Positions 3,721-64,000 of a DNA stretch of 64,000 bases are shown one piece after another. The position numbers and the translations under genes were made by a program. Numbering within the stretch: the stretch's first letter is position 1; every line of letters begins with the position of its first letter. A model generated the notes under the pieces. It ran no database searches. It was not told where the DNA came from and saw only the letters and a list, made by a program, of their open reading frames with translations. Source of the DNA: Gnetum montanum (taxonomy: Eukaryota > Plantae > Gnetophyta); NCBI GenBank assembly GCA_015680685.1, contig MNCI01000001.1, positions 73,911 through 137,910 on the forward strand, written 5' to 3'.

Positions 3721-3829
3721 TTAAGGCATTTTATATTAAAGATGCATAGAATACAAAATGTATTTAGGCCTACATTCACAAAAGCCATAAGATGTAGAAA
3801 ATATGTGGTCCCTTACTAAAATCTTAGCA

Positions 3830-9541: not shown

Positions 9542-10412
9542 TTATGAGTCATGAATTTGTCAACCTTGATATCAGATGCCCATTATTCGAGCCCAGGAGG
9601 TGATGTTGGATATTTGATATCGTATCCTCCATGCTAGCCTATAAATACAACACTTGGATGCATGGTTTGAACAACAATAGATAGAAGAAATAGTTTTATT
9701 TTTAGTTTTTAGTTAGTTTTTTTGTAGATTGTTTGTTAGTCCTCTTATTTTCCCTAGTGCATGCCCACAGTGTGATGTTTGTAATCGTATGAAACCTTTG
9801 TTCCAGTGTGACGTACTTGGACATGTTACATGACTGGAAATAAAGATTAAGATTACTGCCATCATTGAAACATCCACTTAGATTATTATTGCTTTTAATT
9901 ATTAATTATTTACTATTTCCTTTAGTTAACATTTCCATTTATTGCTATTTACTATTTTGGTCATTAAGTAGAATGCATATGCCTTACTCATGAATGCTTA
10001 AGTGTAAGTACTTGGTAATCTAGCAATGTATCATTTGGCACACCTAGTGACATACGCCTGAAAATCCTAGAAGTAGTCTCATGAAGTCCAAGGCATGTAT
10101 GGACGATTAAGAGTGGATACTCATCACATGTAGGCTAGTTTATATTTTACTCTCCATTGTTCAGTACCTTAATTAATTCATCTCTTTGTCATCATTAGGA
10201 GTAGCATAGAATCACACAACATCATATGCCTTACTTTAGACTATACCATATGTGACAAAGCTACCACTAGTCCAAGTGGGAAGACAATGAATTGTGATTA
10301 AAGCATAACGATCTAGATACCACAACTAGTCCCATCCACAAAATTTGACTAGATCATGCGTAAATGCTTGTGATTTATATGGTTGAGCATAGGGGTACCT
10401 CATCACTCATCA
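9542..10412 (+). repeat. 5' LTR (Athila-like)
   Basis: Aligns with 17547-18431 and 48815-49681. TATA box CCTATAAATA at ~9638. Confidence 0.92.
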
Positions 10413-11039
10413 GTGCTGTTGTTGTTGGGGATGATGCTAGTCATCTAGATTAGCTATATTATACATGATCATTGTAAAGGTATTAATGATATATCTTTCA
10501 TAAAAGATTAAAGCACACACACTATAAACCAACAACAATGTCTCTTACATAAGGAAGCGATAATACACAATATAACAAAAACATTCATTGGAGAACTAAT
10601 GAGATATATAGTGAGGAAAATTGTAGTAACCAACCTTATGCAAGGGTTTCTTATGATCATGACCACCTTGATGATACTCAAAGACTACATTCACCTAAGA
10701 TAGACAATCTTGGAGGAGATGATGTAAGTCCTGAACTAGGGGAGGCCTCAAGGCCTAAGACCTCCTCAAAACCCAAAAACGATAAATCAAAGGACCTTGG
10801 AGAACACCATAGAAACCATGGAAAGCCTTTTAATTACTCATCTTCCTCTTTTCCTTCAACATCTAGTTTTGATGAAGATGAACATAGGTATGGAGATAAG
10901 GCTCCACTAAAGGGTCAGACTAAAAACTATAATCAAACCCATAGGAAAAGTCAAAGATGTCACCATGAACATAGACAACATCATCACGATCAAATGAATA
11001 GAGATATAAATTTCCCTCACAACCTATTTAATGAAAATT

Positions 11040-11620
11040 AACCCTTGTTGGACACTAAGAGCCTAATGCATATCATAGAGGCCATTAAGATATCTTGCAG
11101 ACATCTCAAAAAGAGTTGTCTACCTAGGCTTGATATAGAATATATTCCTAAATTTGCAGGAGGCTATGATTTAGATCCATAACATCCTTTACAAGCCTTC
11201 CATGATGCCTGATTAAACTCTTTCCTAGGATACTAATTGATAAAGCTAAAGTATGGTATAGATCGTTGAGACCAAATTCAATTTGATGATGGTCCAAAAT
11301 GCTGGAAATTTTCAATGAGAAATATCAAAATTATGCAAGGGTGTCCAACCTAAGGAGACAAATCAAAGAGTGGAAGCAAGAACAACATGAGCCCTTGGAC
11401 ATGGCCTTAGATAGATATTATGCCTTACTAAATAAATGCCCAAGCCATGGTTTCTCCAAGGAGAGGTAACTTTTCCACATCATAGATGGAATTTGCAATG
11501 AAACAAGGGACATCCTTGGAATGTATGCTCTAGGTCAATTATATGAGCTCCAAGCCCATCAGATCCGAGAGCTAATCAAGCATGTGCAAAAAGAGAAAGA
11601 GAGATATGAAAATGGGAGAA
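11040..11620 (+). pseudogene. gag: Athila-like gag relic
   Basis: Nucleotide homologue of ORF 50291-50833 (GGYDLDP, KAKVWYRSLRPNS), disrupted by stops and a deletion. Confidence 0.8.
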
Positions 11621-14600: not shown

Positions 14601-14869
14601 ATGAATAATCAATCTTATTAATGTTAGAAATCTTAATTTTTCCACCCAAGGGACCAGAACCATCATAACAAGCCACACATAAGAAAAAAGAAATCAATTG
14701 TGTAAGGTCGTATGAGGAGATAAACACTTTTTGGGGATTTTTTTGGAAACATTTTCTAACTTTGCAGTCATATGAACTAAGAACTTAATGAACTAAGTTA
14801 ATGAATAAGGTGTAAATTGATTAATGATAAAGAATACAACCTTAGTAATACTTGAGGTTTTCTTGATTA

Positions 14870-17360
14870 TAGATGGTCCCGAAAAGAGGTGCATAGGGAG
14901 AACCTTCATAGAGAGCACCTAAACATGCACGAGGTGATAGGGGATAGTAGGGTGAGCTTGCAGAACATGAAGAGCAAAAAGACTAATCTTTTAGCATCCA
15001 TCAAGAGGCCCTACTACTAGACAGTCAGTCCAAGGAGACGCCACAGAATCACCAGCTCATGTGTAGGTACAAAATCTCACGTTTTTCCCTTGATTACCTT
15101 GTGGCCATTCAAGAAAATTCCATGTTGACATTGGTCATCATGGAAATGAATTTTAGCCCATTTATAAATATTTCTCTAGAAGCAGTTTGAATACAACTTT
15201 AGGCATCATCCTTGTGGCCCATTCTTTTAGATAATGGTGAATGGTACCTTGGCAAGACTCACCAAGTTTGGCATAGCAAAGAAAAAGGCACCACTATAAA
15301 CATCTATGGAGTTAATGTCTCTTTCTCAATCAAGGAAATTGCAGTAGATCTTAATTTGCCAAATGAAGGGGCTAAGGTAGTCCATCTATCCACTAGATCT
15401 AACCTTGACACCTGAAAACTGTGGCTAAAATGAGCATATGGCAAAGAAGATAAAACATATAATGAATTAACTCTAGAGAAGAGGACATATTTCAAGATCA
15501 GTGCATACCATCTATTTTTCACCAAAGGTATCAATTGAATCTCAACATATGCAGCTAGGGGAAGTGCTATCTTAATGGTTAAATATGTGGCCAATCTTCT
15601 CCAATTCTACTTTACTAAAATTCAAAGGTGGTTCAAGGAGAAAAAGGTAGGGAAGCCAATACTCCCATTCCCTTGCCTAATCAGGAGGCTATGCAAGCAT
15701 GTTAGAATCATAGGGTACACAAATGATGTCTCCAGAAAGGCTCAAAATGCTTCCTTCATAGAGTTGCTCAAACCTGCCACACCAAGGAAAGATCTTGGTG
15801 AAGAGAAAGAACGGGAGAAGGAAGTAGAGCCTAAAGAACAAGTACAATGTGAGCCTAAACAACACTTGAAAACACAAGATCTACCATTGCCACCACAAGA
15901 TTACAAACCTTCAATGAGCCACTTGTAGAAAATAACTGAATCTATCAGTTAGGGAAGTAGAGATGAATCTAATCTTTTCAAAGTAATTAATGATGTCGTA
16001 CATCCCACCAGTTCAACCAATCCAACATGGGATGAGATATCATTACAATTAGGAGAAGGAACATGTTCATTTTGTTGTGCTAACTAGCTAGAATAATATA
16101 GGATGAAGTTGTTGCCCAAGTTGATTGAGGAGAACAAAGCTATAGAGCTAGAGAAGATAAAGGTGGTATGGAATGCCTTAGCTATTGATGCACAATCCTA
16201 CACATATAAAAAGGCATTAGCATCCACACAAGAGGAAAATAAGTAGCTCACCACTGAGAATTAAAGGTTGACCATAGTTGAAAAGCAAAAGAATATTCTA
16301 GAAGAAAGTATCCACCAGTTGAGAGAACAATTGGTGAGGATCAACTAGGACATCAATATATTGACCAGAGAAAACAAAACCCTATCAATGGAGGAGGTTT
16401 GTGCTATTCAACAAAAATTAGCAATAGAAATTAGCATGTCGCAGAATGAGGCCAAGAACCATGAAAAATTGAAGGAACACTTTCATGACTAGGTAGGCAT
16501 GTATAAGAAAATAAATGAAAAGAGATCTAGATGTCTAAAGCCCACATTAGATCCTTGTCAACACAAAATCCTAAGTGGTAGCCAATTTTGGATAGCTATG
16601 CCTTAGTCCACCAGGAAGAAGTAAAGAATAAAGACCTACAGATCAAAGATTTGAAAGAATACATGGCGTTGGCTAACCTTAGACATGCCAAACTTTCCAT
16701 GTTAATAGTAGGTTGACCTTGGAATGAGCTAGAGAAGTAGGTAGCATCCACCTATGAATTATATGAAAAAGAGTTTGCAGATCAAAAAGATGCTTTGCAT
16801 AAGCTACATGTGGCAAACTCAGAATTGGAGGTGATCAAAGCTCACTACCATAGATAGAGGAATTTTTCCTTAGACCTAGCTAGGAGTTTTGATAGATTAT
16901 CACAAATTGAGAGAAAAAGCTAAGGCCTTTGANCTCCACCTATGAATTATATGAAAAAGAGTTTGCAGATCAAAAAGATGCTTTGCAGAAGCTACATGTG
17001 GCAAACTCAGAATTGGAGGTGATCAAAGCTCACTACCATAGATAGAGGAATTTTTCCTTAGACCTAGCTAGGAGTTTTGATAGATTATCACAAATTGAGA
17101 GAAAAAGCTAAGGCCTTTGAGGAATAATGATGATAGTTTGTAGCCTAGTATGTGAAGGACAATCAAATGTTTCCATAGCTACTATGTCCTTGGGACATAT
17201 CGATGCTAGCACACATTAATTTAGCAGCCTAAATGGTACACGAACCATGGATAGAATAAGAAAATTTGCAAGCATTTCTTGATAGCTATAAATTTCATAA
17301 GCCTGGTGACAAAGGGAAGCAACCAATGGAAGAGTCAATGCCTCTAGGCATCATATGAGC
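14870..17360 (+). pseudogene. Athila env-like additional ORF relic with coiled-coil C-terminus
   Basis: Fragments IYGVNVSFSIKEIAVDLNLPNEG and KPILPFPCLIRRLCKH (LPFP.LI..LC signature), then E/K/Q-rich sequence ending just before the PPT. Confidence 0.7.
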
Positions 17361-17546
17361 TTCCTAGTTTTTATCTTATAATATTGTGTCTCATTTTTGT
17401 ACTACACCACTGCAGCATGTAAGAGTTAATTGTTTTGTTTATTATTTAAGTTGGTCAATAATTCCATACCTTTCCAAAATTTTGTATAAAAATTGTTCCT
17501 CATTTTGTTTAACTCAAGGGTAAGTTTTCATTTAGTCAAGGGGGTA

Positions 17547-18431
17547 TGATGAGTCATGAATCTATTGACCCCGATATCAAATATCTGATATTGGAGCCAT
17601 AATATTGGATCTTAGGAAGTGATTTCAGATATTTGATATTGTCTCGTCCTGGCTAGCCTATAAATATAGCACCTGGGTGCATGGTTTGAACAAAAATAGA
17701 TAGAATAAATAGTTTTAGTTTTAGTTTTTAGTTAGTTTCTTTGTAGATTATTTTTTAGTCCTCTTATTTTCCCTAGTGCATGCCTACAGTGTGATGTTTG
17801 TAATCGTATGACACCTTGGTTCAACTGTGACAGACTTGGACACGTTACATGATAGGAAATAAAGATCAAGATTGCTCCCATCATTGTAGCATCCACTTAT
17901 ATTATTGTTGCTTTTAATTGTTAATTATTTATTGTTTCCTTTAGTTAACATTTCCATTTATTTATATTTACTATTTCGATCATGAAGCAGAATGCATATG
18001 CCTTACTCATGAGTGCTTAAGTGTAAGTACTTGGTAATCTAGCAGCGTATCATTTGGCACACCCAGTGACATATTCTTGGAAATCCTAGAAGTAGTCTCA
18101 TGAAGTCCAAGGCATTTACGGACAATTAAGAGTGGATACTCATTGCATGTAGGGTAGTTTAGATTCTACTCTCCATTGTTCAGTAGCTTAATTAATTTAT
18201 CTCTTTTTCATCATTAGGAGTAGCATAAAATTAGACAACATCATATTCCTCACTTTGGACTAAACCATACATGACAAAGCTACCACTAGTCTAAGTGGGA
18301 AGACAACAAAATACAATTAGAGTATAACGATCTAGATACCACAACTAGTCCCATCCATAGAATTCGACCAGATCATGGATAAACACTTATGATCTGTATC
18401 TTTGAGCATAGCTGTACCTCGTCACTCATCA
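17547..18431 (+). repeat. 3' LTR (Athila-like)
   Basis: TGATGAG...CTCATCA termini, preceded by the PPT. Confidence 0.92.
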
Positions 18432-18436
18432 GTTAT

Positions 18437-33199: not shown

Positions 33200-33849
33200 G
33201 TTTCTACCTCTTAAAGAAATTTGAGAAACATAGGTAGTATCTTGTCTTAATGATGAAGATTTTTTCAAGTTGTGAAGAGCTCTTAAACTTAATAAAGTTC
33301 ATCTAAAGTATAAGTGGCGAGGTCTTTGGTTTGGATTATGGTTTTCACAACATTGACATATCTATAGTCCCCATAAAATAGAGTAATGAATTTTTTCACC
33401 TTTTATTTCATCGAGTAATTATAGTTATACTCAACATTTATAAGACATAGAATGTACCTTTGAAGGAAATGCTCAAGGAGATCACCTTTATGGATTTTCA
33501 TATTTTCAAATTCTATAATCACTTTTAGCTTTTTAAACTTTCTATTGGTCTTATTGGTCTTATACTCATTGTTTAGGGCATCCCAACATTTTTTGGAGGT
33601 GTTTTTAGTTATAATTATAGTCCCAATGGCCTCACTATAACTTGTACTTATTATCATATTAGCCAATGAATATAACTTAGTATATTTTAGTAGCTTCCTT
33701 CTTTGCTCTCTTGTTAGAGCATGGAAATTTAGAGTAATTACAAGTCCATTTTCTTCATAACCACTACATAACCAAGATTGTTTTGCTTCATAAAAAGTAC
33801 TGTAATTATTGTAATTAGACCCAAAAGGGTATGCTGTACTAATAGACAT
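33200..33849 (-). pseudogene. gag: Ty1/copia gag N-terminal relic
   Basis: ORF 33403-33849: NYNNYSTF...TSKKCWDALNNEY...FENMKIHKGDLLEHFLQR (UBN2/copia gag pattern). Confidence 0.8.
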
Positions 33850-34351
33850 ATCTATTGGTGTGACCTTTGGGGGTTTGACCTAAGGTATCTTTACCTAGAC
33901 ATTAGAGGTTATATCAACATTAAGTTATGAAGTTTGAAAAGGAAAATAATAGGTGTTAGGTGAAGTGGAACAAGAATGTGACTAGCCATCCCTTTTGACC
34001 AATGCTAGCCTAAGTATGATGGTAGTGTTGGATAGAATTTAAGGGATAGATACCAAAGAAAGATAGATCTATTGAATCCTCAAAGCATGATCTACATACA
34101 TTATGCCATATCAATAAAGCATTCCTTTCATTTTTCTTTTGCATTTTCCATAATATTTTCTTTATGAATAATGTTGAATGTAATGAATATTTGACATTTT
34201 CCATGGCATCTAGGAATAGGATGTCACAAGACCTCATTAAATACTTGACCAAATGAAACTAATAATAAAAGTCTTAAGATCAATAAAACATAGTAAAACA
34301 CTTAATAAGATCTATGGATGGCATTTCTTTGCCATCTTCGCAACAAATTAT

Positions 34352-48814: not shown

Positions 48815-49682
48815 TGATGAATCATGTTTTCCAGGCCTTGATATTGGGGACATGATATCAGGTACAAGATCTTGTAGCCTGGATATGATATCATATACAC
48901 GATATCATGATACGTGTGTTAGCCTATAAATATAGCACTCAAGCGCATAGGGAAGATTCATTAGATCATTAGATATTTTTTTAGTTATTAGGAGTTGAGA
49001 GTCTTTTTATTAGTTTTCAATTCTTTTTCCAAGTGCATGACTACAATGTGATGCTTGTAATTGTACAAAACTTTGTTTGAGTATGATGTACTTGGACACA
49101 CACACAATTGGCAATAAAGATCGAGATTACTCCATCATTGTAGCATTCAATTATTTTTAATTATTATTTTATTATTAATTATTTATTATTATTTTCATAG
49201 TTAATATTTATTTTATTATCATTTACTATTTTTGTTGCTAAATGTGGAATGAGTACGCCTTAATCACAAACATTTAAGTGTAACTACATGGTAACTTAGT
49301 AGCGTATCTAGTAGTGCTTCGAGTAATGTGCGCATGGTAATTCCAAAAGTAGTACACAAAGTCCAAGATGTGTACGGATGATTAAGGATGGATGCTCATC
49401 ACACTTAAGCTAGCTTAGATTTTATTTCCTATTGCTAGCTTAATAAAGTTATTTCTCATTGTCTTTAGGAGTAGCATAGTATTAGAAATCACATCATACA
49501 CCTCACTTTGGATTAAACCATACGTAACAAAGCAAATACTAGTTCAAGTGGGAAAATAGTGAACTATGATCAATGTATAACTATCTAGGTCCACAACTAG
49601 TCCATCTATAGAGTTCAACCAAATCACACGTACATGCTCGTATTTGTATGGTTGAGAATAGGGGTACCTCACTGCTCATCAG

Positions 49683-49700
49683 TGGCACCGTTGCCAGGGA
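49683..49700 (+). promoter_or_regulatory. tRNA-Asp primer binding site (Athila-type)
   Basis: TGGCACCGTTGCCAGGGA versus the Athila consensus TGGCGCCGTTGCCGGGGA (two transitions). Confidence 0.85.
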
Positions 49701-50290
49701 CAGTGCTAGTTATCTAGATTAGTTATATTATATAAGATCATTGTAACAAGGTATTAATGATATATCTTTTAGAAAAAAGAAATTAATATCAATTGAGTCA
49801 CACATAATTCATGATAATGTCTCTCTCACAGGACAATGATAATGCAACAACTAGCGAGGCAATTCATTGGAGAACCAACGAAATTTATGATGAAGAAGAA
49901 GTTTGGAGTACACAATCTTATGTAGGTATTTCATATGTTCATGGACATCCCAACAATACTCAAGGACTATTGTCATCCAACTTAGATACCTCTAGTGAAG
50001 ATGGAACATCCCATAGAACAAGGTGGCCCGTAAGACCTCAGACCTTCTCAATGGTTAGCAAGAGTACATTAGGGGATGATTGGGAGACTTACAAAAGTTA
50101 TGACGAGTCTTCCAGTTCTCTCTCTTCCTCTGCTCTTTCAATGTCAAGTTGTGACACCAATGACTATTCCTCAAGGGGTTAGCATAGAAATAAAAATCAA
50201 ACCCATGGCCAAAATCAGGAATGCCAACATGAACAAAGACAACATCGTCCCAACTCACAAACTCACGACCTACTTAGTAACGATGAACCC

Positions 50291-50833
50291 TTGCTAGCCA
50301 CTAAGAGCCTAATGCATATAATAGAGGCTATTCAAATATTCTGCATGCATCATAAGGAAATTTGTCTACCTAGGCTTGATTTAAACAACTTTCCCAAGTT
50401 CTTAGGAGGCTATGATTTAGATCCACAAGACCATTTACAAGCCTTCTATGATGCCTATGCATGGAACAACATTGATAATGGGTGGCAAAGACTTAAGCTC
50501 TTTCCTATGACACTTGTTGACCAAGAAAAAGTGTGGTACAAGTATTTAAAACCAAATTCAATTTGCCATTGGCGTACAATGGTAAACCTTTTCAACAAAA
50601 GATATCAAACTTGTGTAAGAGTGTCGGCCTTGAGGAGACAAATCCAAGAGTCGAAACAAGGACAACATGAACCCTTGGACATGGCCCTAGAAAGATGTTA
50701 CTCTTTGTTAAACAAATGCCTAGGCCATGGGTTCTTTGAGGAAAGGCTAATATATCACATCATGGATGGGCTTCGTAATGAAACAAGGGAGACCCTAGGG
50801 ATGTATGCCCTAGGTCAAGTATATGAATTATGA
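50291..50833 (+). pseudogene. gag: Retrotrans_gag domain fragment (Athila-like)
   Basis: FPKFLGG...DPQDHLQAF...RLKLFPMTLVDQEKVWY..L.PNSI..W..M...F..RY. Confidence 0.88.
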
Positions 50834-53656
50834 ACCCACCAATTCTAGGAGCTTATTAAGTGGGTAGCAAAAGAAGAAGGAGAAATAGCCAAATGGGAGA
50901 ATGTTGAAAGATCTTAGTAGGACCAAAATCTTAAAGTAATGAAGGTTCATAATCATGAAGGGGAGAAAGTAGCTCATCTCAAGGAGGTGGAACCATCCCC
51001 ACCTTTTCCAATACTAAAACCACTAGATGAAATTTAGGCAAAGATCAATAAAATGATGGAGTGGATGCATGAAAAATGTGGAGAATATGCAAACATTATT
51101 AGATGTAAAACCATCAACTAGAATAAATAGAGGATGCCAAATCAAGAAATAGGACAAAACACCATTCGACAATCAAAAAGAAGGACCAAAGGAAATAAGT
51201 ATAGGGGCCCAAGTACCAATCAAAAGTATCAATGTGATGTTTACATGTGTGATCACCCCAAAGGCCAATGCCCAATCTTGTCACATCTACATGAACATTG
51301 GGGAAGAATCCTACATCCAAATTTCATACAGAAGTACTGTGCTCAACCGTAGTGGCAAAAGCCCCAGTTGTGAGGGAGATCATCATCAAACTAGCCTCAA
51401 CCTTTGTATGCCCCAACACCAAGTGCTTATTATGTTCAACATCCTATTTCTACAACTAGATCAACATCCTCTGCTTCACCTCATCATTATCATTCTTTTG
51501 AATATCATCAACCCATGTCCTCTCCTATGGGGTCACGACCTCATGTTCTTTACACTCCTCCTTACTCTCAATATTTTTCTCCTTCACCTCCTTCTACATC
51601 ACCACCAATTGTACTAGAAGGTTTTGCACCACAACACCAACCAATGAACATTACTTGTGGTACTACTGTCAATTGTTGTGGGAGTCCTTCATAATGTCAG
51701 AAGCATCCTTTCTTTAGGAATGGCCATAGAAAGAGACAACACCATTCTGAAACCACTACATCCTTCAACTTAGCACAAACCCAACATTATGATGCACCTT
51801 CCTCTTCAAAATCAACGCCTATTATTACCTTATACAGGCCACCAATTAATACTCAAACAACCATGTGACCTAATGAGTCTAATAATGTGAGGAGACATAT
51901 CAATCCTTGCATACTATCTTATGGTCACGGGTGCCATAGTGGGTTAGCTTCTTATCACATGACCACATCTTATAATTTACCCCACTATGCCTACTTTAAT
52001 CAAGTGTGTGAAACCCAAATTGGGAACATTCCTAACACACTCCAAAAGGGACCTAGTGTTTTGGATATGAACAGACCCCAATATTTCCAACATGCATGGA
52101 TCCAAACTTTCCATTTATTAATTCTTACCATGATCAAAGGTTTAGTCATGGCGATACCCCCCATTCTAACAAGAAGAATTAGTAAATTTTTTTCCTTTTC
52201 TTTGGTTTTACAATTTTTTTTGTTTTCCAATTTTTCATTTTCTAATTTTTAATTTTTCAATTTGTCATTTTATCTTTTTGAGGGTGATCTCATCTATGAA
52301 TAAAATACTCATGTGACCTATCGGTTGAGGTGTTGTTCTATGTTATCGAGTTACAAGGGACTAATTATTTAGACAATGAGTCCATGACATCCACCCACCC
52401 ATTCTATTAATAAGTAGTTCTACTTTGGGTATGATGATATTCTTGTTATCATTAAAAGTTAAAGTAACTTTGTACTCATTATGCCCATAGTGAAGAGTGA
52501 TGAACTAAGAGGGAATGGCTAGGGTGTGACATCAAGGGGACTTGTGGATTGTCTTTGGTGACATCTGTATGTGCTATCATTGAGCTTGGTTATACTAAGA
52601 CCCCTGTAGATCTAATAAAAAATGGGAGTAAGAGTTGTGATAAAGAAACTTAATAAAGGAACTCAATGCTATTCTAGATGGTTCCACTAGAAAGACATGC
52701 ATCCATGCTTGAAGGTTTGTGGTCTCTCTAGATTTCCATTGAGAAAGATAAAGTGCAAAAGCAACCAGAAGAAGAAAAAGAAAAGAAAGAAGAAAAATAG
52801 CAAAGAAAAAATCAAGAAACATGTGCTGCAGAAAAATTCAAATGACTCCTCCCTTATGAAAAATGCCAAGTGATCGTACACCTTGCTATCATGATGCTCT
52901 TATGGTTGTCTATCATTAGGATGAAACAATGCAATGTCACTGATAGAAGGTATGAACTTGGTTTTGGTCTTGGAGCAAAAGGCTAATGGTACCTTAATCA
53001 TGCATAACACTTTGAATTCATTGTGCCTACGGAAAGTTACCTCACATCTCAATCTCTACAATCCCTTCCACAATTCTCATCTCACGGTCTAGGTATTTCT
53101 AATATGTGTCTTGTGTGGCATAGAATTCATACCTCATTATGGTGGTATTTAACATGTGTGTGTTTTGTTGCACAAGTTCATATTGCATTTAACCCTTCTA
53201 GTGCCTATGAACATTTTAAGGCATGGTTATGCAAGGGCATGATAGGTTGCAACCTACTTTGGGGAGGATCGACTTGCGTGACTTTTGTAATTTGTACTTG
53301 TTGCACATCACCACATCATCTTATACCCTCCAAGTACTACATTGCAAAATCTATTCTTCTCTTTATCATTATTTCAACCAAACATTCCTTTGTAGCACTA
53401 CATGTCATTTTTCCTCACCCTATTCAAAGAACTTCATTGTATAATTCCACTTCATTACACTTTTGGTGCCTTAATGTCCACTTGACATTACCACAAACCT
53501 TTCAAATCTACATCAAATCGTTCATTTTTGGTCATGAAAACTCAAAAATTCATCAATTTTACTAAGTACCCTATTTTGGAGGGGATGTGATATTAGGTAC
53601 CTGGTATCAAGTCTAATGTGATATTGGGTACGCGCTATCATGTTTGTGATATCGTG

Positions 53657-55240
53657 TGAAACACCGTGAAAATTGCGAGTCGGCCTCAGGCAAAGATTCA
53701 CGATCCAGGCAAGAATACATGACCGAATTCCAGAAGGGAGAACAAGGCAGAGTAACGCAAGGAGACGCGCAGCCTCAAGTCTTCGATTTCCTTTGCAGAT
53801 TTCCAATATCACTATGATTTATCTTTGTACGATATATCACGCGACGTAGCGTAATGACGCTTAGCGTGATTTTGTTCAACATAGTCTAATATCAGAAGGC
53901 AACTTACTTCGGGATCTAGAGAGGCTTAAGTAGCGTAATATGTGACTTATCGTATATTTTGCTAAGTCTTTTGTCCAAGGCCGAGTTTACGCTTTGTTAT
54001 GCACGACAGCGTAATGAGCCTCGAAAAAGTCAAAGGCAAAGTCCAAGGAAGCGCAATAGATCAACTCTGTTCTCTTGGCTTGCGGATAGCTCACTTTACG
54101 CTCGTTACGCAACCTAGCGTATCTCAGCGTAATGCATCGCCAAGCTAATCATCGTTTATGCTTCACTACGCTTGGCCGCGTAAGCGAGCATAAAATAGCT
54201 TGAATCCATTGTTTTCATGCCTTGTTACACTCTTGCACGCAACGCAACGTGAATGAGCATAATGTAGCCCAAAGTTAGCTGAGACATGCCCGACGCACAT
54301 CTGTTATTCACATGCACAATACGCAAATGAGCGTATTGTGCATGATCATAAAGTTCAACACAAAGATGGTTAGGTCAATGGCATTTCAGAAAGTTTGAAA
54401 CACGTGTCATCACTGCCAGACCTTCTCCACACGTCGTCAAACCTATAAATACTTTAGTTAGCGAAAACATACGGGGACAGACAAAAAGAGAACACAGAGA
54501 CAAAAGAAAGAAGCAGAGAGAGCAGGACTTTGGCAATTTTTTTTAACAGCATCACCTTCTAATAGAGACAGAGCATATTTCGCTTGAGCATTGGCAGCAG
54601 GAGTGATTACCCCTTTGGCGAAGACACAACTTTCTCCATTGGTGATCGTCGGCAGTTTCGAGCAGAGACTACCTAAGGCAAAAGGAGTAGATCAGAGATC
54701 AAGAGATCATCTGGTGTGGTTTGTGAGTTTTTGTTGGTCAGAAGCAGTTGATCAATAGCCGTCAGAACTTGACCTTCCTTGCATCCCATCTCTGGCCTAC
54801 GAGGTAGATCAGACTCCATTCTGTATTTCTGCTTAGACAGTTTTCCTTGTTATTTTGTGTCTGCTTCACACAAGGCAATCGGGGTCTCCCCAGTGTAACG
54901 TGATATACCAAATATTAATTTTTTGGGTCAAAGCCATAGATCTTGAAATCACGTGTTTCTCTCACATCTGATTCTCTTTACCGTGTTAGCGTTATCGTCG
55001 TTATAATTCATTTGCATCGTTTTTCTTTCATTTTGCGACCTGTCGAATCAAATTGTTCCACGCAACATCCATAATCTCCATCGGTTTACTGATTAGTAAG
55101 TCCCTGTTTGATCGACAAGACCATTCAGGGCGCCATGGATTCGTTTTTCCCACATAGCCCTCGCACGGATCCGTGGTCAAAACTGTGTGCACAGAGTTTT
55201 GTTTGGTATTTTCTAGCTGCCGACATTTTCCGTTGTTACA
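53657..55240 (+). repeat. 5' LTR of the young Tat-like element
   Basis: Imperfect terminal inverted repeats TGAAACACCGTGAAAAT ... ATTTTCCGTTGTTACA. TATA box CCTATAAATA at ~54442. Confidence 0.85.
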
Positions 55241-55246
55241 GTTTTC

Positions 55247-55263
55247 TGGCGCTAGAAGGAGGG
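55247..55263 (+). promoter_or_regulatory. tRNA-Asn primer binding site
   Basis: TGGCGCTAGAAGGAGGG is complementary to the plant tRNA-Asn 3' end CCCTCCTTCTAGCG-CCA. Confidence 0.9.
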
Positions 55264-55482
55264 CCTAGGCTCCGATCCATATTTTTAGGGTAGCCCTATT
55301 AGCGATTTATACCCAAAACCGTAAATGTAATACCTCTAGGGAAGTTTACGGTAAATCGTGTGGTGTAGATCGGTCACAAGAACGATTCCCTTGGAATCCT
55401 ATAGGCCAAAAAGCCTATTTACGATCTTTTTGTCAGCCACTTATTAGATCCCATCATTTGTCACAGCTAATCCACTCGATCA

Positions 55483-58400
55483 ATGGATTCCTTATACACA
55501 ACCACAACCGCCATGGTCGCCACTGATGTGGGTACCGCATCTGTGAACCCTATCACTGTCACCAGGCCAACTGCTGGTGCAGTAGGACAGCAGGGACCAT
55601 CACGTAGGTCATTGAGACTACAGGGCAAAGACCCTGTTTTCATGGTCGTGACCCCTGAAGAATACAACTTCATCTATGTTAAGATCCAGGCAAAGCTTGC
55701 CCTTAGTTGAGCCGAGATCGAAGCAAAAAGAAACTTTGAGATGATTCATCGAGGAGGTCACGATTTCACCCCGACAGCTTATGACATCATTCCTTTGACC
55801 GAACATCAACATGAAATTATAACACAGTTGGTCATGGCCAAGGGCCAGGCTTCACGGGCTACCCTGGAGCCCCAGAATGGGGAGGAGGAAGAGGATGAAT
55901 TTGCAGCCCAGTCTGAACATTCGTTCCATACTCTGAGCCCCCACACGTACATAAATCCCCTATTTCCCTTCAACGGAGAGGCCGCTCCTCTTGACCCAGC
56001 CATGCCCACATAGACGCACTTCCCTATCATTCCACAAGCCACTGCGTAGCCATCCGGGCTGCAAATGCAAATACCTCACAACAACATGGGGGCGGTTTCA
56101 TTGCCACGTGTGCTCAGCATTCCGGCAGTGGTTCCAGCGACCAACGCGTCCCATTTCATCCCGTAGATCCAACCCCAAACCATGTCCACAAATCGTCTGA
56201 TGCAGACCTTATCGCTACCACCCCCTCCAACCCAACAGATCACCGCCGTCGTGCAGCCATAGATACTTATCCAATAGCCTACCGCGAGTCAGTGGACCTA
56301 CCCTGCGGCATAACATAACCAGTCTGCAGTGTACGGTGTGCAACCCTCAATGGCACCCGCAACGCAAATTTCGTAGGTGATCTTGCAATATACCTATCCT
56401 TACCCTGCGCAGCCGACGGCAGCCAATCTCTCTTCCCAAACCGGTGGATGGTGGTCTTCACAGGCACCCCTGCCTGCAGGGATCCCCGCCCCACCATCTA
56501 CTGGCCAAACCATCCCATCATTTCTACCACCTGGCCCTGCTCTCCCAGGTTGCTCCTCCTACACAGACACCTCCAGCAACAGGTCTGGACCAAGCCTTTC
56601 TACTTATTCAAACCCTCACCGAGGAGGTTAGGCGTCTTAAGGCTGCTGGCTCAAACACTATACAGATCATGGACTTTTACCAAGATGATCCCATTAGTCC
56701 AGCGGTCCCCATGTTAACATTGCCACCTGGGATGTCCTTACCACATTTCACCAAGTATAATGGGGAGGGGGATCCCAATGCTCACTTGGTCACATTTAGA
56801 TCCAAATCCTTATTGTTGCAACAGTAACCTCAAATGATTATCCGCGTCTTTGCTATGTCTTTGATAGGGAAAGCTCTAGATTGGTATCGAGCCCTCCCAC
56901 GCTCTTCCATCTCAACCTTGGAAGAGCTTCTGACACAATTCGTGACTCGCTTTAAATACAACTTAAAGCCGGAAGTCACGTTAGATCAACTCATGGGAGT
57001 AAAACAGGATCCTCTCGAACTATTCCAGAAGTTCATACAACGCTGGAATGCTACTTTGAATGAAATCCGTGAGCCAATCACGGACTCACATTTTCTGGCC
57101 ATCTTCAAAGGAGTAGTCAATGACTTTATCAAGTTAAAGCTGTATTATCTTTCCCCCAACTCTTTACATCAAGCCTTTGCTCAAATTAGAAGCATCCAAG
57201 ATGCTGCGGAGGCCAGCAAAGACCCGGCGTATGTCGCCTACAAAAATGCACACAACAAGGCTAAGGATAAAGGCAAGGTAACGACAACGACAGTGGCTAT
57301 GTTGGCTAAAGGCGCCAAGAACAAGAACAAGAAGGCACCCACCACGCCTCCTAAGACCACGGCTAGTGCAGGTAGCACCAGCCAGGACACAGCTGCCCCT
57401 GAAGGCTCCCCCTAGCCAAAACCAAACTTTGAGCATAAAGATCGCTCAAAGTATACAGCCCTGCCTGTAAAACATTCAGAACTGTTGAAACAATTATTAG
57501 GGGCCGGATATATGCAACCCAAAAGGATATCCGAAGAAGCTCTAAAGCGTCACAGACATCATTGTGAATTGCTGAAGAATCCTTCTTTAGCCCTACCTAA
57601 CAAGCCACCAGTTCCGAGATCTTTCAGGCTGGACCATTTTTGTGACTACCACTAGCTGTGTGGTCACAACACAGATTACTGCTGGGAATTGAAGGACGAT
57701 ATTCAATGCATGATCGACGATGGTCATTTAAAATTAGATGGCAGTAATCCAACGCGTCCAGAAAACCAAGCGTTGCACGTGTATAAGGATCTGCTGAACG
57801 CAAACAACGCACCTTACACGATCAGCGTAGTGAGTATGGACGGTGAGAGGAAAGTACTACCCAAACAACCATTTGTTTTACATGTACCTACCAACTCACC
57901 AAGGGGGGCAAGCCTTTCATCGGCAGCCAATGGTGTCTCGAGGCCACCTTTCATTATACGGGCACCTTCGTAGAATACCACTCAGCCACACAGTAACAGA
58001 CAAGCCACGGCTTTGTCCATGTCCATGCCTAGGGCACCCTTCATCATTAGGATGCTAAAGCCACTGGCTGCTTCACTCACGCAAGGGCAGGCCTCTAACC
58101 AAAATCGTCAACCATCACCTGACAAGCGAAAGGGAGAGGACACCTCTGTTAACGCAACGAAAGATCATTTTACGCTTGGCTTCCCTAAGCCTAGGCCCCT
58201 GGCCTCTGTGCCTTCGCCTGCACCTCAGAAACAGAATAAAGGTGCGGAAATGCAACCGCCTCCTCTTGGTAAGAAAAAGAACAACCCCCTGACCGACACC
58301 GTTCCACCTTGGAAGATTAGTCTCTTGGGTTGAATGGAAGCGGACAAGGAAGATAAACAACCTAGCCGAGAGAAGGACCTCCTTGACGCATTTACGCAGG

Positions 58401-59266
58401 TCAAACAGGCTCTCAAATAAAAAAATACAACACTGAGCCTCTATGACCTTCTTATGACGTCCCGGGAACACCGTGAGGCTATGGTCTGCATGCTTACATC
58501 CATATCTATGGATGAAAGCTTGCCAGCGGAGGAGGAAACGATACATGCTGTCATGTTTCCTTCCTAAGCTGAGCAATCTAGGCCTACCTCGTTGACCTTT
58601 CATGATGAGTCCATCAAGGATGATCCTGAGAAAGGCCAGGTGACAACTGAACCCATGTTTATCACTATTCGGGTTGGTCAGTATCGAATCCGGAGAGTAC
58701 ATGTGGACGACGGCGTAGCTACAAATGTCATTCCTTATCCCATCGTGGATAGGTTAGGTCTGGTCGACCAAATCACCCCCACGACGACAGCTTGCGTAAA
58801 ATCGTTCAATGGGGCAAGGGTTTAGGTCAAAGGGATGGTCCGTATCAAGTTTATGGTAGGGAATCAATTCCCAACGGATGCCACATTCTTAGTCATCGAG
58901 GAGATGCCTGGCTTCAACTTGATCCTAGGGAGGTCCTGGTTAGCCCAACTGAGGGCAGTTTCATCACCGATACACCAAGAGATACACCTACCCTACGCTA
59001 GAGGGGAGGTTGTAATACGCAGTGATGAAATCACCCCCAGGACTGTCAACAACATTGAAGAAGAATGGGGTTCAGAGATAGAAACATCGGATGATCAAAC
59101 CTATCCCCAAATCCCTCAGCAAATCGACACCAATGATGACAGTCTAGCCTGGGCCAACCTACCATTTTAGGATGGCGGCGTAGAGGAGTCAGATCGTAGA
59201 TCCCCCCACCCTTACACAACACTCAACGTGAAGGCCATTAAGAGACAACTGAGGATTGATGGTTGA
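55483..59266 (+). pseudogene. gag: gag-protease polyprotein with several premature stops and one apparent frameshift near 56540
   Basis: FTKYNGEGDPNAHL, FAMSLIGKALDWYRALP..SI, FCDYH*LCGHNTDYCWELK, RRVHVDDGVATNVI, FNLILGRSWL. ORF fragments from 56444 to 59170 share one frame. Confidence 0.92.
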
Positions 59267-59484
59267 AGAATGACATTTACGCACATTATCATATTTTTAT
59301 CAGCTATCGCCGTTCGCATTCAGCAGTCTGTTTTTCATTCAATACATATTTACGCTATAAAAGTTTTCAATTTTTACGCTTGCCATCTCTTTACGCTATT
59401 GCATTTCTTTTACGTACGCTATTCATGTTGCTTAATCACTTTAGCCTAATTATGCAGAATTGTATACTGTCATCATTTACGCTT

Positions 59485-60116
59485 NNNNNNNNNNNNNNNN
59501 NNNNNNNNNNNNNNNNNNNNNNNNNNNNNNNNNNNNNNNNNNNNNNNNNNNNNNNNNNNNNNNNNNNNNNNNNNNNNNNNNNNNNNNNNNNNNNNNNNNN
59601 NNNNNNNNNNNNNNNNNNNNNNNNNNNNNNNNNNNNNNNNNNNNNNNNNNNNNNNNNNNNNNNNNNNNNNNNNNNNNNNNNNNNNNNNNNNNNNNNNNNN
59701 NNNNNNNNNNNNNNNNNNNNNNNNNNNNNNNNNNNNNNNNNNNNNNNNNNNNNNNNNNNNNNNNNNNNNNNNNNNNNNNNNNNNNNNNNNNNNNNNNNNN
59801 NNNNNNNNNNNNNNNNNNNNNNNNNNNNNNNNNNNNNNNNNNNNNNNNNNNNNNNNNNNNNNNNNNNNNNNNNNNNNNNNNNNNNNNNNNNNNNNNNNNN
59901 NNNNNNNNNNNNNNNNNNNNNNNNNNNNNNNNNNNNNNNNNNNNNNNNNNNNNNNNNNNNNNNNNNNNNNNNNNNNNNNNNNNNNNNNNNNNNNNNNNNN
60001 NNNNNNNNNNNNNNNNNNNNNNNNNNNNNNNNNNNNNNNNNNNNNNNNNNNNNNNNNNNNNNNNNNNNNNNNNNNNNNNNNNNNNNNNNNNNNNNNNNNN
60101 NNNNNNNNNNNNNNNN
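59485..60116. other. Assembly gap (632 N)
   Basis: Run of N. Confidence 1.
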
Positions 60117-63100
60117 CTAGTGGACCTTCTCTTCTGGGAAGTATCCCTTCATGAAGAGTTTCCTCTTCATGAGGTCCTTGCTCTGGCACCGGCTCCACAG
60201 GGGGACGTTCTTCATCACTACGCTCCTCTTCCTATGCTTGCTCCTCAGCTTGCTCATCTTCTCTATCCCCTTCGGGCACCTAGATATAGAAAACATATTA
60301 GCAAGACAAAACTTAACAACACAATAAGAAAATTTAGACTTAGCCATAATTAAACTTACTCGCGATGGCCTTGCTTCCGTAGCAAAAGGAAGATTTTCTA
60401 GGCCGGCCCACAAGCACTTCATAATTTCCTCCTCAGTTAGGTCTGACCACACATCATCTCCTAAGGTAGCTCCAGCCTTCACCTTCCCTTTCTCCATGCT
60501 AGTTCAGCGAGGCGGGTCAGGGAGGAATGCAGGGATTGTAGTCTGGTCCTCAGGGAGAGTCATCTCCCTTTTTGGGGACACACTTACAGTCACCTGCTCT
60601 TCGAACTTCTTGAAGGCTTCGGATGCTCCAATGACGTCAAGGAAGACTTGCAAGGATTGAGCTTTAGAATCATGATAAAGTTTACGATAAGTGATGCTTT
60701 CTCGCTTATACAAATGTTTGTGGTCCTTTTCCTTCTGCCCCCACTCTTGCACACTTGCACAATAATCCCTCCAATCCTGGCTTTTCTAAGCTAGGAGCTC
60801 TATTTGCATCCGCTGCTCTACGAACGCCCGACTAGTTTGCATACTATTTTTGATGGCGGTCCAATAACGGGAGTAGTAAATAATAGCAGTACGCCAGTCC
60901 TCATCGCCCGTCTCCTGTGCCTGTAGGAATTCGCATCGCGACTTCAGGTCTCCGACCTCTTTGGTCAGAGACTCAATCATCTGATCTAATCTCTGCAGCC
61001 TTTTCTAGAGGTTTTCATTCACGCTTTTACTCTCCCATAAGGAGCGAGTCGAGCGTAATGCACATTTATGTATTTCCTCATAAATGTGGCGTGGCACGAC
61101 CGCCCCATCCGATGGAGGCTCCACTGTGTCCAAATCAATGGGCTCCGTTGGGTCCCATCGAAGGTGAGCTCCTAACAGCAAATATTATCATTGTATATGA
61201 CACATTACTACTGTATAACAAAATAAACCTTCTATAGCTACAACGTACTAGCTTCAGGATCGACGCGCTCAAGGCGCTCGATCATATCACTGACAACACC
61301 TTCCATGAAGGTGAACTTGTCAGGGAAGTCTCTCCACGCTCTGCTCACAGCTGCGGACGCAGACGTATCCCCTTCTCCTGTAGCGTAGTTGAGTTAGAAA
61401 CTCTAAGTGTTAATAGAATTCTACAAAATTTCCAATATGCTCATTACCTCTACCAGTGACAGTGGCAACTTCGTCAACATCTTCCGCCGCCTTCTCTTCT
61501 TCATGCACATGAGTCTGTACGTCGCTGGTTCCAACAGCTGGGGCCTCCTCACCCACAAGGGTCTATGCGCGGATCCCTCTAACAGCTGGGGCCTCTTTTT
61601 CTAAAACTGGGGCCCCTTCCCCACGACTGAGTATCACTGTCCCTATTTTAGGGGTCAGCTGCTCCGTAATTTTCACTGGTCATATCACAATACTCTTAAT
61701 ATATCATTCCAAATATTCTAAGTAAACATTGCATAATACATCTTTCAATACATTTCTTCACACTTACCAGGCAGAGGTTTACTCCGTTGAACTGTGACCT
61801 CCACAGCTCGGCCTGCGTCACTCCCAGGCTCTGCAGAGGCCTCACTTATACGAAGCCTTTTACGCTGAGCTGCAGGTTCTACAATTTCTGCCGCCAGGCA
61901 TTTCCCTCGTGAGGCATCGCCAGTGTAAGTAGGCATTATCCCGCCTACACTGTTGAGGCCTCGCACTTGAGGCACCGCCAAACCCTTGGTCATTATCAAC
62001 AGAGACTCCCCAATCCCTTCCGGAGGATCCTGCTCACGGGTAGTGCTGAGGATATGTGTAATCCAAGGTTTGGATAGCTGGTCTCGGTCTTGTTGGACCC
62101 AGACCCCATTCCTTTGGATGACCAAAAACTCAGCAAGACGCTGAAGGCAAGCTATGTAGAAGGCGTAATGCACATTGAAACGAGACTCGAGCTTCTTGCG
62201 AAGCCTGATCATCTCAGTGCGTAGTCCTGCAGCAAAATAGCTTGGCCAATTGAACTGGGTCCCTTATTCCAGAACCTCCCGCATAATATGGGTCTGCTCT
62301 ATGGAAAAGAACTTCCCTTGCGAGAGTGTTTTGGGAAAAGTCCGGGCCCGGAAAAGGGGATAAACTATCTTGGTGACTCCTAGTTTGATTCTTTCACAAG
62401 GAAACCCTTTAGGCTCCTTCTTGATCCCTACCCACTCCTCTAGCCACTTCTAGTAGTCAAGACTCCTCTTCACCTTCTCGTCTATGGGAATGTCGTCAGA
62501 GGGGACGCTGAAGAGGTCTACAAAGAGTTGAGCATCAATGTCAAAACTTACACGTACCTTATGCACGCGTGTGCAAAAGCGCTCAGCCTTTTCACTAAAG
62601 GAGTTGACAAGGGTTAGCATTTCGCTGATAGGGACATCAGGGGTCGCGGCTAAAAATAAATGCATTAGCCTCACTTCTTGTATCTTGGAGACTACCGCAA
62701 CTGGGGTCGCCACATGGCCGAGCCAGCATTGTGCATCCTTGATGTCGCCATAGCGGAAGAGAACGGTATTCACCTCGCGGTCGAAAATTGTAAGGGTAAT
62801 ATCCTGGGATTCCCTGACTGAACAACGCAAGACACAGGTCAAATGAAAACATTATTATGCAATGTTCACAATTTACAACTACACCACGCAACAATAAAAT
62901 ACATAGCAGTTTTACCAGATCCAAATGGCAAAAGAAATGGAGGAAGGTTCCTCTGCACGTCCTCAACAGTAAGGGGTGGATCCAAGGTCCAGTCATCATG
63001 TAGCCACCCGAGATTCTGGAAATTCTCGAAAGTGTCAGCATAGCGGGTGGGGTACTCATGAATGTCGAAGCCGATCTACCCCATCACACCAGCGCGCACG

Positions 63101-63820
63101 TTGCTGGTTGAGGTAAACACCTTTATTGCCGTTTCGGTCCATGACAACGTATCACCATCTCCTACTAACCTGTTCTCATGAATAAAAAACCTGTACCATA
63201 CCACATAGATTTATCTTGCGCTTCACAAAACTTAGACAACAGACATATAACAAAAATACAGTCAACAAAACTACTTACCCACCTGAATAATACACAGTGC
63301 TAACTGGGTTCTGGAAGTAGGTTGAGACGTGGCGAGACATGAACAAAGTGTTATAGGCATGGTAACAACTAAACTGGGCCATCTCCTAGATCCAGCCTAA
63401 ACACCTCAAACCTCGAGCGCTAAGTTCTCGGTCCTCAGGACGACCAGTATCAATGGCTCCGTCTGTCAAGAAAGCCAGGATCCCTTGCACAGAACCCACT
63501 AACAGGTGCTTCAAAATGGCACCAGCAATATCGCCCGACAAATTAGACCATATAATAAAGCTGTAGTTGCGCAGTAAGAACTGCAGAAACTCCAGCGCAC
63601 CCTTTCGAAACCATATGGCCTTCCCATGCAACCGAGTTTGCAGAGGAGGGATATTAGGCACGATCGGGTTTATACAGCACATAATCCCAACAATATCCAA
63701 GACGATCAAAATAGGCTTTAGCATCATACTGTACAGAAAACGCAATACATAGATCAAAATCTAGATTCACATTTGCGTGATTAAATACAGAAAACCTAAA
63801 AATTACACGTAGTTATCCAT
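60117..63820 (-). pseudogene. Antisense gene of at least 8 exons: FCP1/NIF-like domain + env-like/plant-transposon-like domain + coiled coil + acidic tail
   Basis: Exons 63807-63820, 63279-63728, 62916-63190, 61768-62817, 61448-61675, 61249-61377, 60360-61171 and <60117-60279. Seven 70-98 nt U-rich GT-AG introns with compatible phases. About 9 in-frame stops, no frameshift. Confidence 0.88.
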
Positions 63821-64000
63821 GCCGAAATCGCCAAAACCCTTGCAACAGCGCAAGGTTTGCCCCTGACAATGGCGATAGATGCAATTCCCTTTAAACCCTC
63901 ACCTTAACGTGAGGTCCCTAGTCTAAAACCCTCGTTTATGCGAGTGACGCTACAACAATAAACACTGCTTGAATAACACAAATATGCAAGAGATGGCCTA

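What the first reader, a model, noticed from the sequence alone, without database searches (positions are those of the whole stretch)
62920..63728. Captured, apparently catalytically dead FCP1/NIF-type HAD phosphatase domain at the N-terminus of the antisense protein
Seen: KPILIVLDIVGIM...IWFRKGALEFLQFLLRNYSFIIWS...YHAYNTLFMSRHVSTYFQNPVST...ENRLVGDGD...NVR. Established: the FCP1/SCP/NIF family pattern is LLVLDxDGTL...RP...EFL....F.V.IWS...NTLLIDDSP.K...NP, and the family includes RNA polymerase II CTD phosphatases. Here motif I keeps only the first Asp, and the motif IV DD is replaced by SR, which simple C-to-T decay cannot explain. Inference: a host-derived pseudophosphatase used by the element as a phospho-peptide-binding or decoy module, possibly affecting transcription or silencing.
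Basis: partly seen in the sequence, partly recalled or inferred. Interest (0 to 1): 0.85.

Follow-up and report, generated by a model that had tools for sequence, protein, structure and literature searches.

The report
Disarmed phosphatase domain on plant retrotransposon
A plant repeat found in thousands of variant copies, likely a retrotransposon, carries a backwards-facing gene that starts with a phosphatase-type domain lacking its metal-binding residues yet showing signs of protein-level selection, so the element likely uses a borrowed, probably inactive enzyme fold as a binding module.

Summary
Mostly confirmed, with corrections. Exon 1 (63727-63279, minus strand) is an FCP1/NIF-type HAD domain: Pfam NIF E 5e-4 (below cut-off), Atlas 28 of 30 hits NIF, and 29 bits on a plant profile against at most 4.8 for shuffles. 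The exon-2 peptides do not score as NIF. The best-fitting donor is the uncharacterised plant DxNG subfamily, which already lacks the second motif-I Asp (113 of 120 read DxNG). So only the motif-IV DD loss is element-specific. The domain belongs to a high-copy family: about 3,000-3,800 contigs were laid in each of three DNA runs. Of 39 listed differences, 26 are silent (p 5e-5), and none gives Asp at the catalytic codons. Asp11, Arg41, Ser61 and a basic motif-III residue are kept. Relatives appear transcribed on the antisense strand in one of four RNA runs. Best reading: a captured pseudophosphatase heading the antisense accessory protein of an Ogre/Tat-like element, likely a metal-free binding module. 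Binding, splicing and linkage across an assembly gap are not shown. This copy has stops. The scan noted NIF domains before on moss CACTA transposons, not on LTR elements.

The parts
53587..55480 (+). Start of the element (TG...), probable 5' LTR plus leader; the LTR's end and primer-binding site were not defined
   Evidence: CpG per 250 nt rises from 2 to 9-19 at this point; sequence; the 3' LTR is not in the window
55483..59170 (+). Broken gag-protease region (several stops, at least one frame change), ending in a stop after the protease
   Evidence: Retrotrans_gag E 2.2e-7 at 56828-57412; Asp_protease_2 E 4.6e-4 at 58568-59167; frames
59260..59484 (.). AT-rich non-coding stretch after gag-protease, where Ogre elements have an intron before RT-RH-INT (inferred likeness)
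   Evidence: GC 0.34; Ogre layout from PMC6317226 passages
59485..60116 (.). Assembly gap of 632 N between gag-protease and the antisense gene; the two sides are linked by scaffolding only
63279..63727 (-). Exon 1 of the antisense gene (ATG at 63727), 149 codons, one in-frame stop at 63388-63386
63293..63709 (-). FCP1/NIF-type HAD domain, residues 7-145
63686..63697 (-). Motif I, D11-I-V-G14: nucleophile Asp and the Gly of the DxNG subfamily kept; Val at the acid/base position
63542..63550 (-). Motif II, W60-S61-N62: Ser kept
63413..63415 (-). Arg105 at the column where 119 of 120 host proteins have Lys (motif III position, numbering recalled)
63332..63337 (-). Motif IV position: S131-R132 in place of D-D (Ala-Arg in most copies)
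63191..63278 (-). Predicted intron 1 (88 nt, GT-AG, GC 0.33), not at a host-gene intron position
   Evidence: splicing not observed
62916..63190 (-). Predicted exon 2 (ENRLVGDGD...NVR; stop at 63078-63076); no NIF score
62818..62915 (-). Predicted intron 2 (98 nt, GT-AG; acceptor chosen by frame)
   Evidence: read
61768..62817 (-). Predicted exon 3, about 350 codons, two stops, no family match, basic RKR patch near its end
60117..61660 (-). Further predicted exons: weak coiled-coil-type Pfam hits (E 0.02-0.3) and an acidic tail that runs into the gap; boundaries approximate

Best explanation
The stretch encodes an FCP1/NIF-type HAD fold without the motif-IV aspartates, at the front of a predicted spliced antisense gene of a high-copy, likely Ogre/Tat-type LTR retrotransposon family, and it likely works as a metal-free binding module (a pseudophosphatase) for a phosphorylated or acidic ligand rather than as an enzyme. 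Shown: the homology; the residue changes; thousands of variant contigs in runs under three organism labels; an excess of silent differences. Inferred: (1) capture from the plant DxNG subfamily, probably through spliced RNA, because four angiosperm host introns are missing; (2) loss of Mg2+ binding, with Asp11, Arg41, Ser61 and Arg105 still able to line a phosphate pocket and Arg132 possibly standing where the metal sat; (3) expression from an internal antisense promoter, with introns surviving because they face backwards on the genomic RNA; (4) a nuclear accessory role that tethers the rest of the protein (unknown domain, coiled coil, acidic tail) to a host partner. This copy is dead.
For: Homology. 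A model built with a DxNG alignment (pLDDT 73) matches CTDNEP1 and SCP1 best (Foldseek E 4e-5; VIA Z 11.9, rmsd 3.6, 128 aligned). Donor: the land-plant DxNG profile gives 29.3 bits with no gap from motif I to motif II, against 20.2 for Pfam NIF and 15-18 for a DxDET set. The tree puts it on the DxNG side of a 99/99 branch. Host family: 113 of 120 read DxNG and 115 of 120 read DDxP. Of 49 columns conserved in at least 90% of host proteins, 19 are kept, including D11, G14, R41, W60, S61, W112, N126, T127, N140 and P141; the eight from D131 to L138 are all changed. Family: 3,413, 3,775 and 2,992 contigs laid on 436 nt; 26 of 39 listed differences silent against 0.35 expected for transitions, p 5.5e-5, rough N/S ratio 0.15-0.27; no listed row gives Asp at codons 13, 131 or 132, and none touches codons 11, 41, 61 or 105. 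RNA: in run X15, depth at 63240-63499 is 17-62 in one orientation and 0 in the other. Catalytic roles of Asp96, Asp98 and Asp206 in Scp1: PMC3215212 passages.
Against: The Pfam score is below the curated cut-off and covers only residues 8-75. The single-sequence model failed (pLDDT 44.7, all helix), so the fold match leans on the alignment supplied. The window's branch is very long (5.33), its nearest rows are non-plant DxNG proteins, and grouping with land-plant DxNG is only not rejected (AU p 0.106). No eukaryotic UBLCP1, SCP or CPL sequences were in the tree. One search hid 28 of 68 difference rows and listed only differences above 30%, so rare Asp-bearing copies are not excluded; motif I lies near the thinly covered end. 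The S-P-Y-K residues after DD are changed too, so the pocket may bind nothing phosphorylated. In exons 2-3 only 6 of 12 listed RNA differences are silent. No spliced joints were listed and several reads run into introns. Only 1 of 4 RNA runs has strong signal, and most of its reads are under 90% alike, so they come from other copies. An N gap separates the gene from gag-protease.
Confidence: 0.45

Rival explanations
1. The fold is kept only as a protein-protein or structural surface, as recalled for the non-catalytic FCP1-like domain of yeast Tim50, with no phospho-ligand.
For: All eight conserved columns from D131 to L138 are changed. Most kept columns are hydrophobic or structural. Tim50 chains are among the fold matches.
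Against: Asp11, Arg41, Ser61 and a basic residue at 105 are kept, with no listed family differences at those codons.
Confidence: 0.3
2. The domain keeps an unusual, metal-independent or weak hydrolase or phosphotransfer activity using Asp11, with Arg132 in place of the metal.
For: Nucleophile Asp, motif-II Ser and a basic motif-III residue are all kept. The activity of the host DxNG family is itself untested as far as my searches show.
Against: Both the acid/base residue and both motif-IV aspartates are absent. In Scp1 these serve metal binding and catalysis (PMC3215212 passages).
Confidence: 0.1
3. The gene is real and selected but belongs to a different element across the gap, for example a CACTA-type DNA transposon like those on which this scan noted NIF domains in mosses.
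For: A 632-N gap lies between gag-protease and the gene, and no 3' LTR is in the window. Multi-intron accessory genes are typical of CACTA (recalled). Earlier notes e1-7303624 and e1-9728884 (unchecked).
Against: GC and CpG content are alike on both sides of the gap and unlike the flank. Position and orientation match the 3' reverse extra ORFs of Ogre and Retand (431 of 434 PMD hits are 3' reverse). No transposase domain was found in the frames scanned.
Confidence: 0.12
4. A passively captured host fragment that decayed and was amplified as a passenger.
For: This copy has stops. Gene-fragment capture by plant elements is very common (PMC13477047 passages).
Against: 26 of 39 listed differences are silent, 24 at third positions; no indel rows were listed; the exon-1 stop is not shared by most copies.
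Confidence: 0.04

Closest known systems
Antisense extra ORFs (eORF-3'R, aORF-3R) of Ogre and Retand elements, such as maize Grande gene23, rice RIRE2 and Silene Retand
   Same: Reverse-strand gene in the 3' part of a Ty3/gypsy element, conserved among copies and transcribed antisense (PMC7264820, parts 1-2 of 3 read; PMC6317226 passages and Additional file 4).
   Different: Listed cargo is PMD, Transposase_28, DUF390, SMC-like and a few DUFs, with no HAD/NIF domain. That review says these ORFs lack similar host genes, whereas this one has an identifiable host family. No PMD or Transposase_28 hit here.
AlkB-type 2-ODD domain in orchid Tat/Ogre-like elements (PMC9289625; section 12 and passages read)
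   Same: A host enzyme domain captured by a Tat-type element and kept through many rounds of copying.
   Different: That domain keeps its cofactor ligands and is active. This one has lost its metal ligands and heads a long, predicted multi-exon antisense protein.
Plant, algal and fungal DxNG subfamily of NIF proteins ('FCP1 homology domain-containing protein C1271.03c-like' in database names)
   Same: D-x-x-G motif I, same cap length, W-S motif II, L-x-x-x-x-W segment, N-T-L ... N-P.
   Different: Host members keep Asn in motif I and DD in motif IV (113 and 115 of 120) and have five introns in the domain in a grass. The element's domain has Val, Ala/Ser-Arg and no intron at the four positions within exon 1; identity is only 17-29%.
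FCP/SCP phosphatases (SCP1/CTDSP1, Fcp1, CTDNEP1, UBLCP1)
   Same: Same fold in the alignment-guided model.
   Different: They need DxDx(T/V) and the motif-IV Asp for Mg2+-dependent catalysis; both are missing here. UBLCP1 shares an L-G-x-I-W-like segment but has a cap about 10 residues shorter.

Membership tests
FCP1/SCP/NIF (PF03031) domain family | Profile match to the family | tested here: met
   Pfam E 5.1e-4 but 20.2 bits, under the 21.8 cut-off; met through Atlas and subfamily profiles of 27-29 bits against shuffles of at most 4.8
FCP1/SCP/NIF (PF03031) domain family | HAD Rossmannoid fold with a beta-hairpin flap after motif I | tested here: inconclusive
   Alignment-guided model pLDDT 73 with top hits CTDNEP1 and SCP1, but guided by family sequences; the single-sequence model failed
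Active FCP/SCP phosphatase | Motif I DxDx(T/V) | tested here: not met
   D-I-V-G-I; no listed family difference at codon 13 (28 rows hidden)
Active FCP/SCP phosphatase | Motif IV Asp pair for Mg2+ | tested here: not met
   S131-R132; most copies Ala-Arg
Active FCP/SCP phosphatase | Motif II Ser/Thr and motif III Lys | tested here: inconclusive
   Ser61 kept; Lys replaced by Arg105
Active FCP/SCP phosphatase | Mg2+-dependent phosphatase activity | not testable with these tools
   needs an assay
DxNG subfamily of NIF proteins | Scores best on the DxNG profile, with the Gly at motif I +3 and the same cap length | tested here: met
   29.3 against 15-20 bits, ungapped from motif I to II; the 120 proteins were found with a profile that included the query
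DxNG subfamily of NIF proteins | Asn at the motif I acid/base position and intact DD | tested here: not met
   Val13; S131-R132. A derived descendant, not a standard member
DxNG subfamily of NIF proteins | Nests within the subfamily in a tree | tested here: inconclusive
   DxNG side of a 99/99 branch, end branch 5.33; AU p 0.106 for land-plant grouping; no UBLCP1, SCP or CPL rows
Ogre/Tat Ty3/gypsy LTR retrotransposon | gag and protease ORF | tested here: met
Ogre/Tat Ty3/gypsy LTR retrotransposon | RT, RNase H, additional RNase H and integrase | tested here: inconclusive
   None in the sequenced part; a 632-N gap lies where they would be
Ogre/Tat Ty3/gypsy LTR retrotransposon | Paired LTRs, primer-binding site, target-site duplication | tested here: inconclusive
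   Only a probable 5' LTR start; no clear PBS found; the element runs off the window
Ogre/Tat Ty3/gypsy LTR retrotransposon | Extra ORF in reverse orientation in the 3' part | tested here: met
   linkage across the gap rests on the scaffold and on CpG content

The most novel reading that the evidence does not exclude
Plant transposons of two classes (this LTR family and, by unchecked earlier notes, moss CACTA elements) independently recruited NIF phosphatase folds, and this one is a true phospho-reader decoy that shields or captures a host phospho-protein, such as a Pol II, RNA-processing or silencing factor, to protect the element: a new kind of transposon-encoded counter-defence, and a handle on the untested host DxNG family.
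Probability: 0.18. Interest if true: 0.85.

Novelty: new variant of a known kind. Interest (0 to 1): 0.56.

Why it matters
The function and origin of antisense extra ORFs in plant LTR retrotransposons is an open question, and most have no recognisable host source. Here one has an identifiable donor family, a specific and apparently family-wide loss of metal ligands, and a selection signal. That gives a small domain on which binding and activity can be tested directly. It would add pseudoenzymes to the known cargo (PMD, AlkB, lysine-decarboxylase-like) and could point to the ligands of the uncharacterised plant DxNG proteins.

Tried and rejected
No whole genome is held, so copies could be studied only through laid contigs and reads. 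Word-indexed protein searches with exon 1 found nothing (0 of 12 and 0 of 316 candidates). The metagenome scan with it gave 216 pattern matches, none confirmed. PDB sequence searches with exon 1 and exon 3 gave no real hit. NCBIfam gave nothing for the three exons. The single-sequence fold was discarded. Exon 2 as the C-terminal part of the NIF domain was rejected as unsupported, so the fifth host intron was not compared. No RNA holder was listed by the run index; RNA came from runs added by species label. No spliced joints were listed; with diverged copies this is no evidence either way. A DxNG pattern found 0 viral contigs. A UBLCP1-type pattern gave 9 viral loci that I did not analyse, so UBLCP1 origin was judged only from the printed alignment. 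The Atlas look-up of exon 3 did not complete, so exon 3 stays unidentified. No likeness between exon 3 and the Transposase_32-like ORF at 15539. No complex was predicted, because no partner is named by evidence. The Fcp1 structure paper was not held. Alignment A1 had a wrong reference and was not used. Tree rows: 48 (26 of 120 database proteins, 7 of 8 locus proteins, 14 DxDET, the window); 34 of those 48.
Full report
Setting. The window is a repeat-rich, plant-like scaffold; no whole genome is held. At 53587 a TG start coincides with a jump in CpG from 2 to 9-19 per 250 nt that lasts to the window's end. It is followed by a broken gag (Retrotrans_gag E 2.2e-7) and protease (E 4.6e-4) that stop at 59170, an AT-rich stretch, a 632-N gap (59485-60116) and a minus-strand gene with short AT-rich interruptions. 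A gag-protease ORF closed by a stop and a reverse extra ORF in the 3' part fit Ogre/Tat elements (PMC6317226 passages and Additional file 4). RT and integrase are not seen and the 3' LTR is outside the window, so the lineage and the link across the gap are inferred.

The observation. The quoted peptides are there. Exon 1 runs 63727-63279 with one stop. An 88-nt GT-AG intron leads in frame to exon 2, which also has a stop. A 98-nt intron read leads to exon 3. Exon 1 matches Pfam NIF at E 5.1e-4, under the cut-off. The Atlas gave 28 of 30 hits as NIF (0.93; 193 of 256 features). HMMER over 1.84 billion representatives gave one hit, a NIF protein. Exon 2 scores -1.6 bits on the host C-terminal profile while shuffles reach 3.9, so the supported domain is residues 7-145 of exon 1.

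Donor. I recalled that plants have a NIF subfamily with D-x-N-G, fetched it by pattern (120 loci; 18 long translations, 8 after dereplication) and by profile (477 hits, 120 listed; that profile included the query). In the 120, motif I reads DLNG 74, DVNG 25, DING 14, DLAG 1, unparsed 6; motif IV reads DDxP in 115, unparsed 5. Exon 1 scores 27.0 bits on the 8-sequence profile, aligned from residue 7 to 145, and 29.3 on the 120-sequence profile, without a gap from motif I to motif II; 1,000 shuffles reach 4.7 and 4.8. A DxDET set (13 viral-contig proteins, with or without P0004) gives 15-18 bits. In a 48-row tree the window falls on the DxNG side of a 99/99 branch, but on a branch of 5.33 and next to non-plant rows. 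Grouping with land-plant DxNG is not rejected and not shown (AU p 0.106, 34 rows). UBLCP1, the nearest solved relative of DxNG, was not in the tree; it shares one segment but has a shorter cap. Grass genes have five introns in the domain, and a second plant gene shows the first three at matching places; exon 1 has none at the four positions it spans, which fits capture through RNA if the donor was intron-bearing.

Fold. The single sequence gave no usable model. With 89 DxNG homologues the model reached pLDDT 73 and matched CTDNEP1 and SCP1 first (E 4e-5 to 9e-5; Z 11.9, rmsd 3.6, 128 aligned). This shows compatibility, not independent proof.

Catalytic site. Of 49 host columns conserved in at least 90% of rows, 19 are kept (D11, G14, R41, W60, S61, W112, N126, T127, N140, P141 among them); N becomes V13, K becomes R105, and D-D-S-P-Y-K-A-L becomes S-R-H-V-S-T-Y-F. 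In Scp1, Asp96 is the phosphoryl acceptor, Asp98 binds metal and may be the acid/base, and Asp206 coordinates Mg2+ (PMC3215212, two passages). Ordinary catalysis is therefore very unlikely.

Family. Twelve listed DNA runs under four organism labels hold the stretch or part of it. On 436 nt of exon 1, 3,413, 3,775 and 2,992 contigs were laid from three runs under three labels; this is not a copy number but shows a large family. Of 68 difference rows above 30%, 40 were shown. I left out the one inside the stop codon, where most depth (58-78% in DNA) differs from this copy. Of the other 39, 26 are silent and 24 are third-position; 35% silent is expected for random transitions (p 5.5e-5). Differences are not independent events, so the p value is a guide. 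About 99% of DNA depth differs at the first base of codon 131, giving Ala. No shown row lies in codons 11, 13, 41, 61, 105 or 132. No indel rows were listed. The DD loss thus predates the family's spread, as far as shown rows go. In exons 2-3 only 6 of 12 shown RNA rows are silent.

Expression. Four RNA runs added by species label gave 419, 23, 120 and 26 laid reads, mostly under 90% alike. In X15 the depth at 63240-63499 is 17-62 in the orientation that means minus-strand RNA in most stranded libraries, and 0 in the other. No joints were listed and some reads run into introns, so splicing is predicted only.

Mechanism. Most likely (0.45 overall) the element's antisense accessory protein begins with a pseudophosphatase whose kept Asp11, Arg41, Ser61 and Arg105, with Arg132 near the lost metal site, bind a phosphorylated or acidic ligand and tether the rest of the protein to a host partner. 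My odds for the steps: NIF homology 0.95, selected in the family 0.9, no ordinary phosphatase activity 0.85, same LTR element 0.8, DxNG donor 0.7, phospho-ligand 0.45. Rivals: plain scaffold (0.3), other element across the gap (0.12), odd activity (0.1), passenger (0.04). A role in transcription or silencing has no direct evidence here.

Prior knowledge. Searches: 'antisense ORF' + 'LTR retrotransposon' + 'FCP1' 0 papers; six terms, at least four, 32 papers, 20 listed; 'NLI interacting factor' + 'retrotransposon' 10 papers, listings only, none on element cargo by title; capture terms, 15 of 346 listed, none of them holding 'FCP1 homology'; 'C1271.03c' 0; 19 papers with two of 'retrotransposon', 'HAD phosphatase', 'extra ORF', none with all three. 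PMC7264820 (parts 1-2 of 3), PMC9289625 (section 12 and passages; its figures, which chart all 15 domains, not seen), PMC6317226 (passages, Additional file 4; two large supplements unreadable), PMC13317346 and PMC13477047 (term look-ups) name no NIF cargo. PMC2994645 passages state the general substrate-trap and scaffold ideas for pseudophosphatases. The REXdb table used E at most 1e-10, so a domain this diverged would be missed, and subscription papers such as Steinbauerova 2011 were not seen. The scan's own notes report NIF domains on moss CACTA elements and the DxNG hallmark in algae; I checked only the hallmark, in plants.

Verdict. A real, apparently undescribed cargo of a known kind of accessory gene: new variant of a known kind, interest 0.56.

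Noticed in passing
window 61686: In RNA run X17, 7 reads carry a long T-rich loose end on the plus strand here, inside predicted intron 3: possibly a poly(A) tail of a shortened antisense transcript, or another insertion in those copies.
   Followed up: no
window 63079-63530: In run X15 the RNA signal is piled over the NIF part (depth up to about 92 against 1-8 over most other exons), and 58 molecules begin at 63079: a short NIF-only transcript, or library bias.
   Followed up: no
window 63760-64000: Upstream of the ATG the read orientation is mixed or reversed in X15 and X17, which fits a promoter region or genomic-strand transcription.
   Followed up: no
window 9584-18433 and about 49400-53586: Two copies of an older, CpG-poor gag-bearing LTR family (LTR pair 831 nt, 87.7% alike; copies 66-72% alike). 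The first has a Transposase_32-like ORF at 15539-15928 (E 4e-4). The younger element begins at 53587, right after a purine-rich tract of the second.
   Followed up: partly
window 33403-33879: Remnant of a copia-type gag (Retrotran_gag_2, E 3.8e-4).
   Followed up: no
window 16747-17120: Two 186-nt copies 99% alike on either side of a single N at 16933, probably an assembly overlap.
   Followed up: no
P0004 (not in the window): A singleton protein with two tandem NIF domains, the first with Asn in place of the nucleophile Asp, the second canonical.
   Followed up: no
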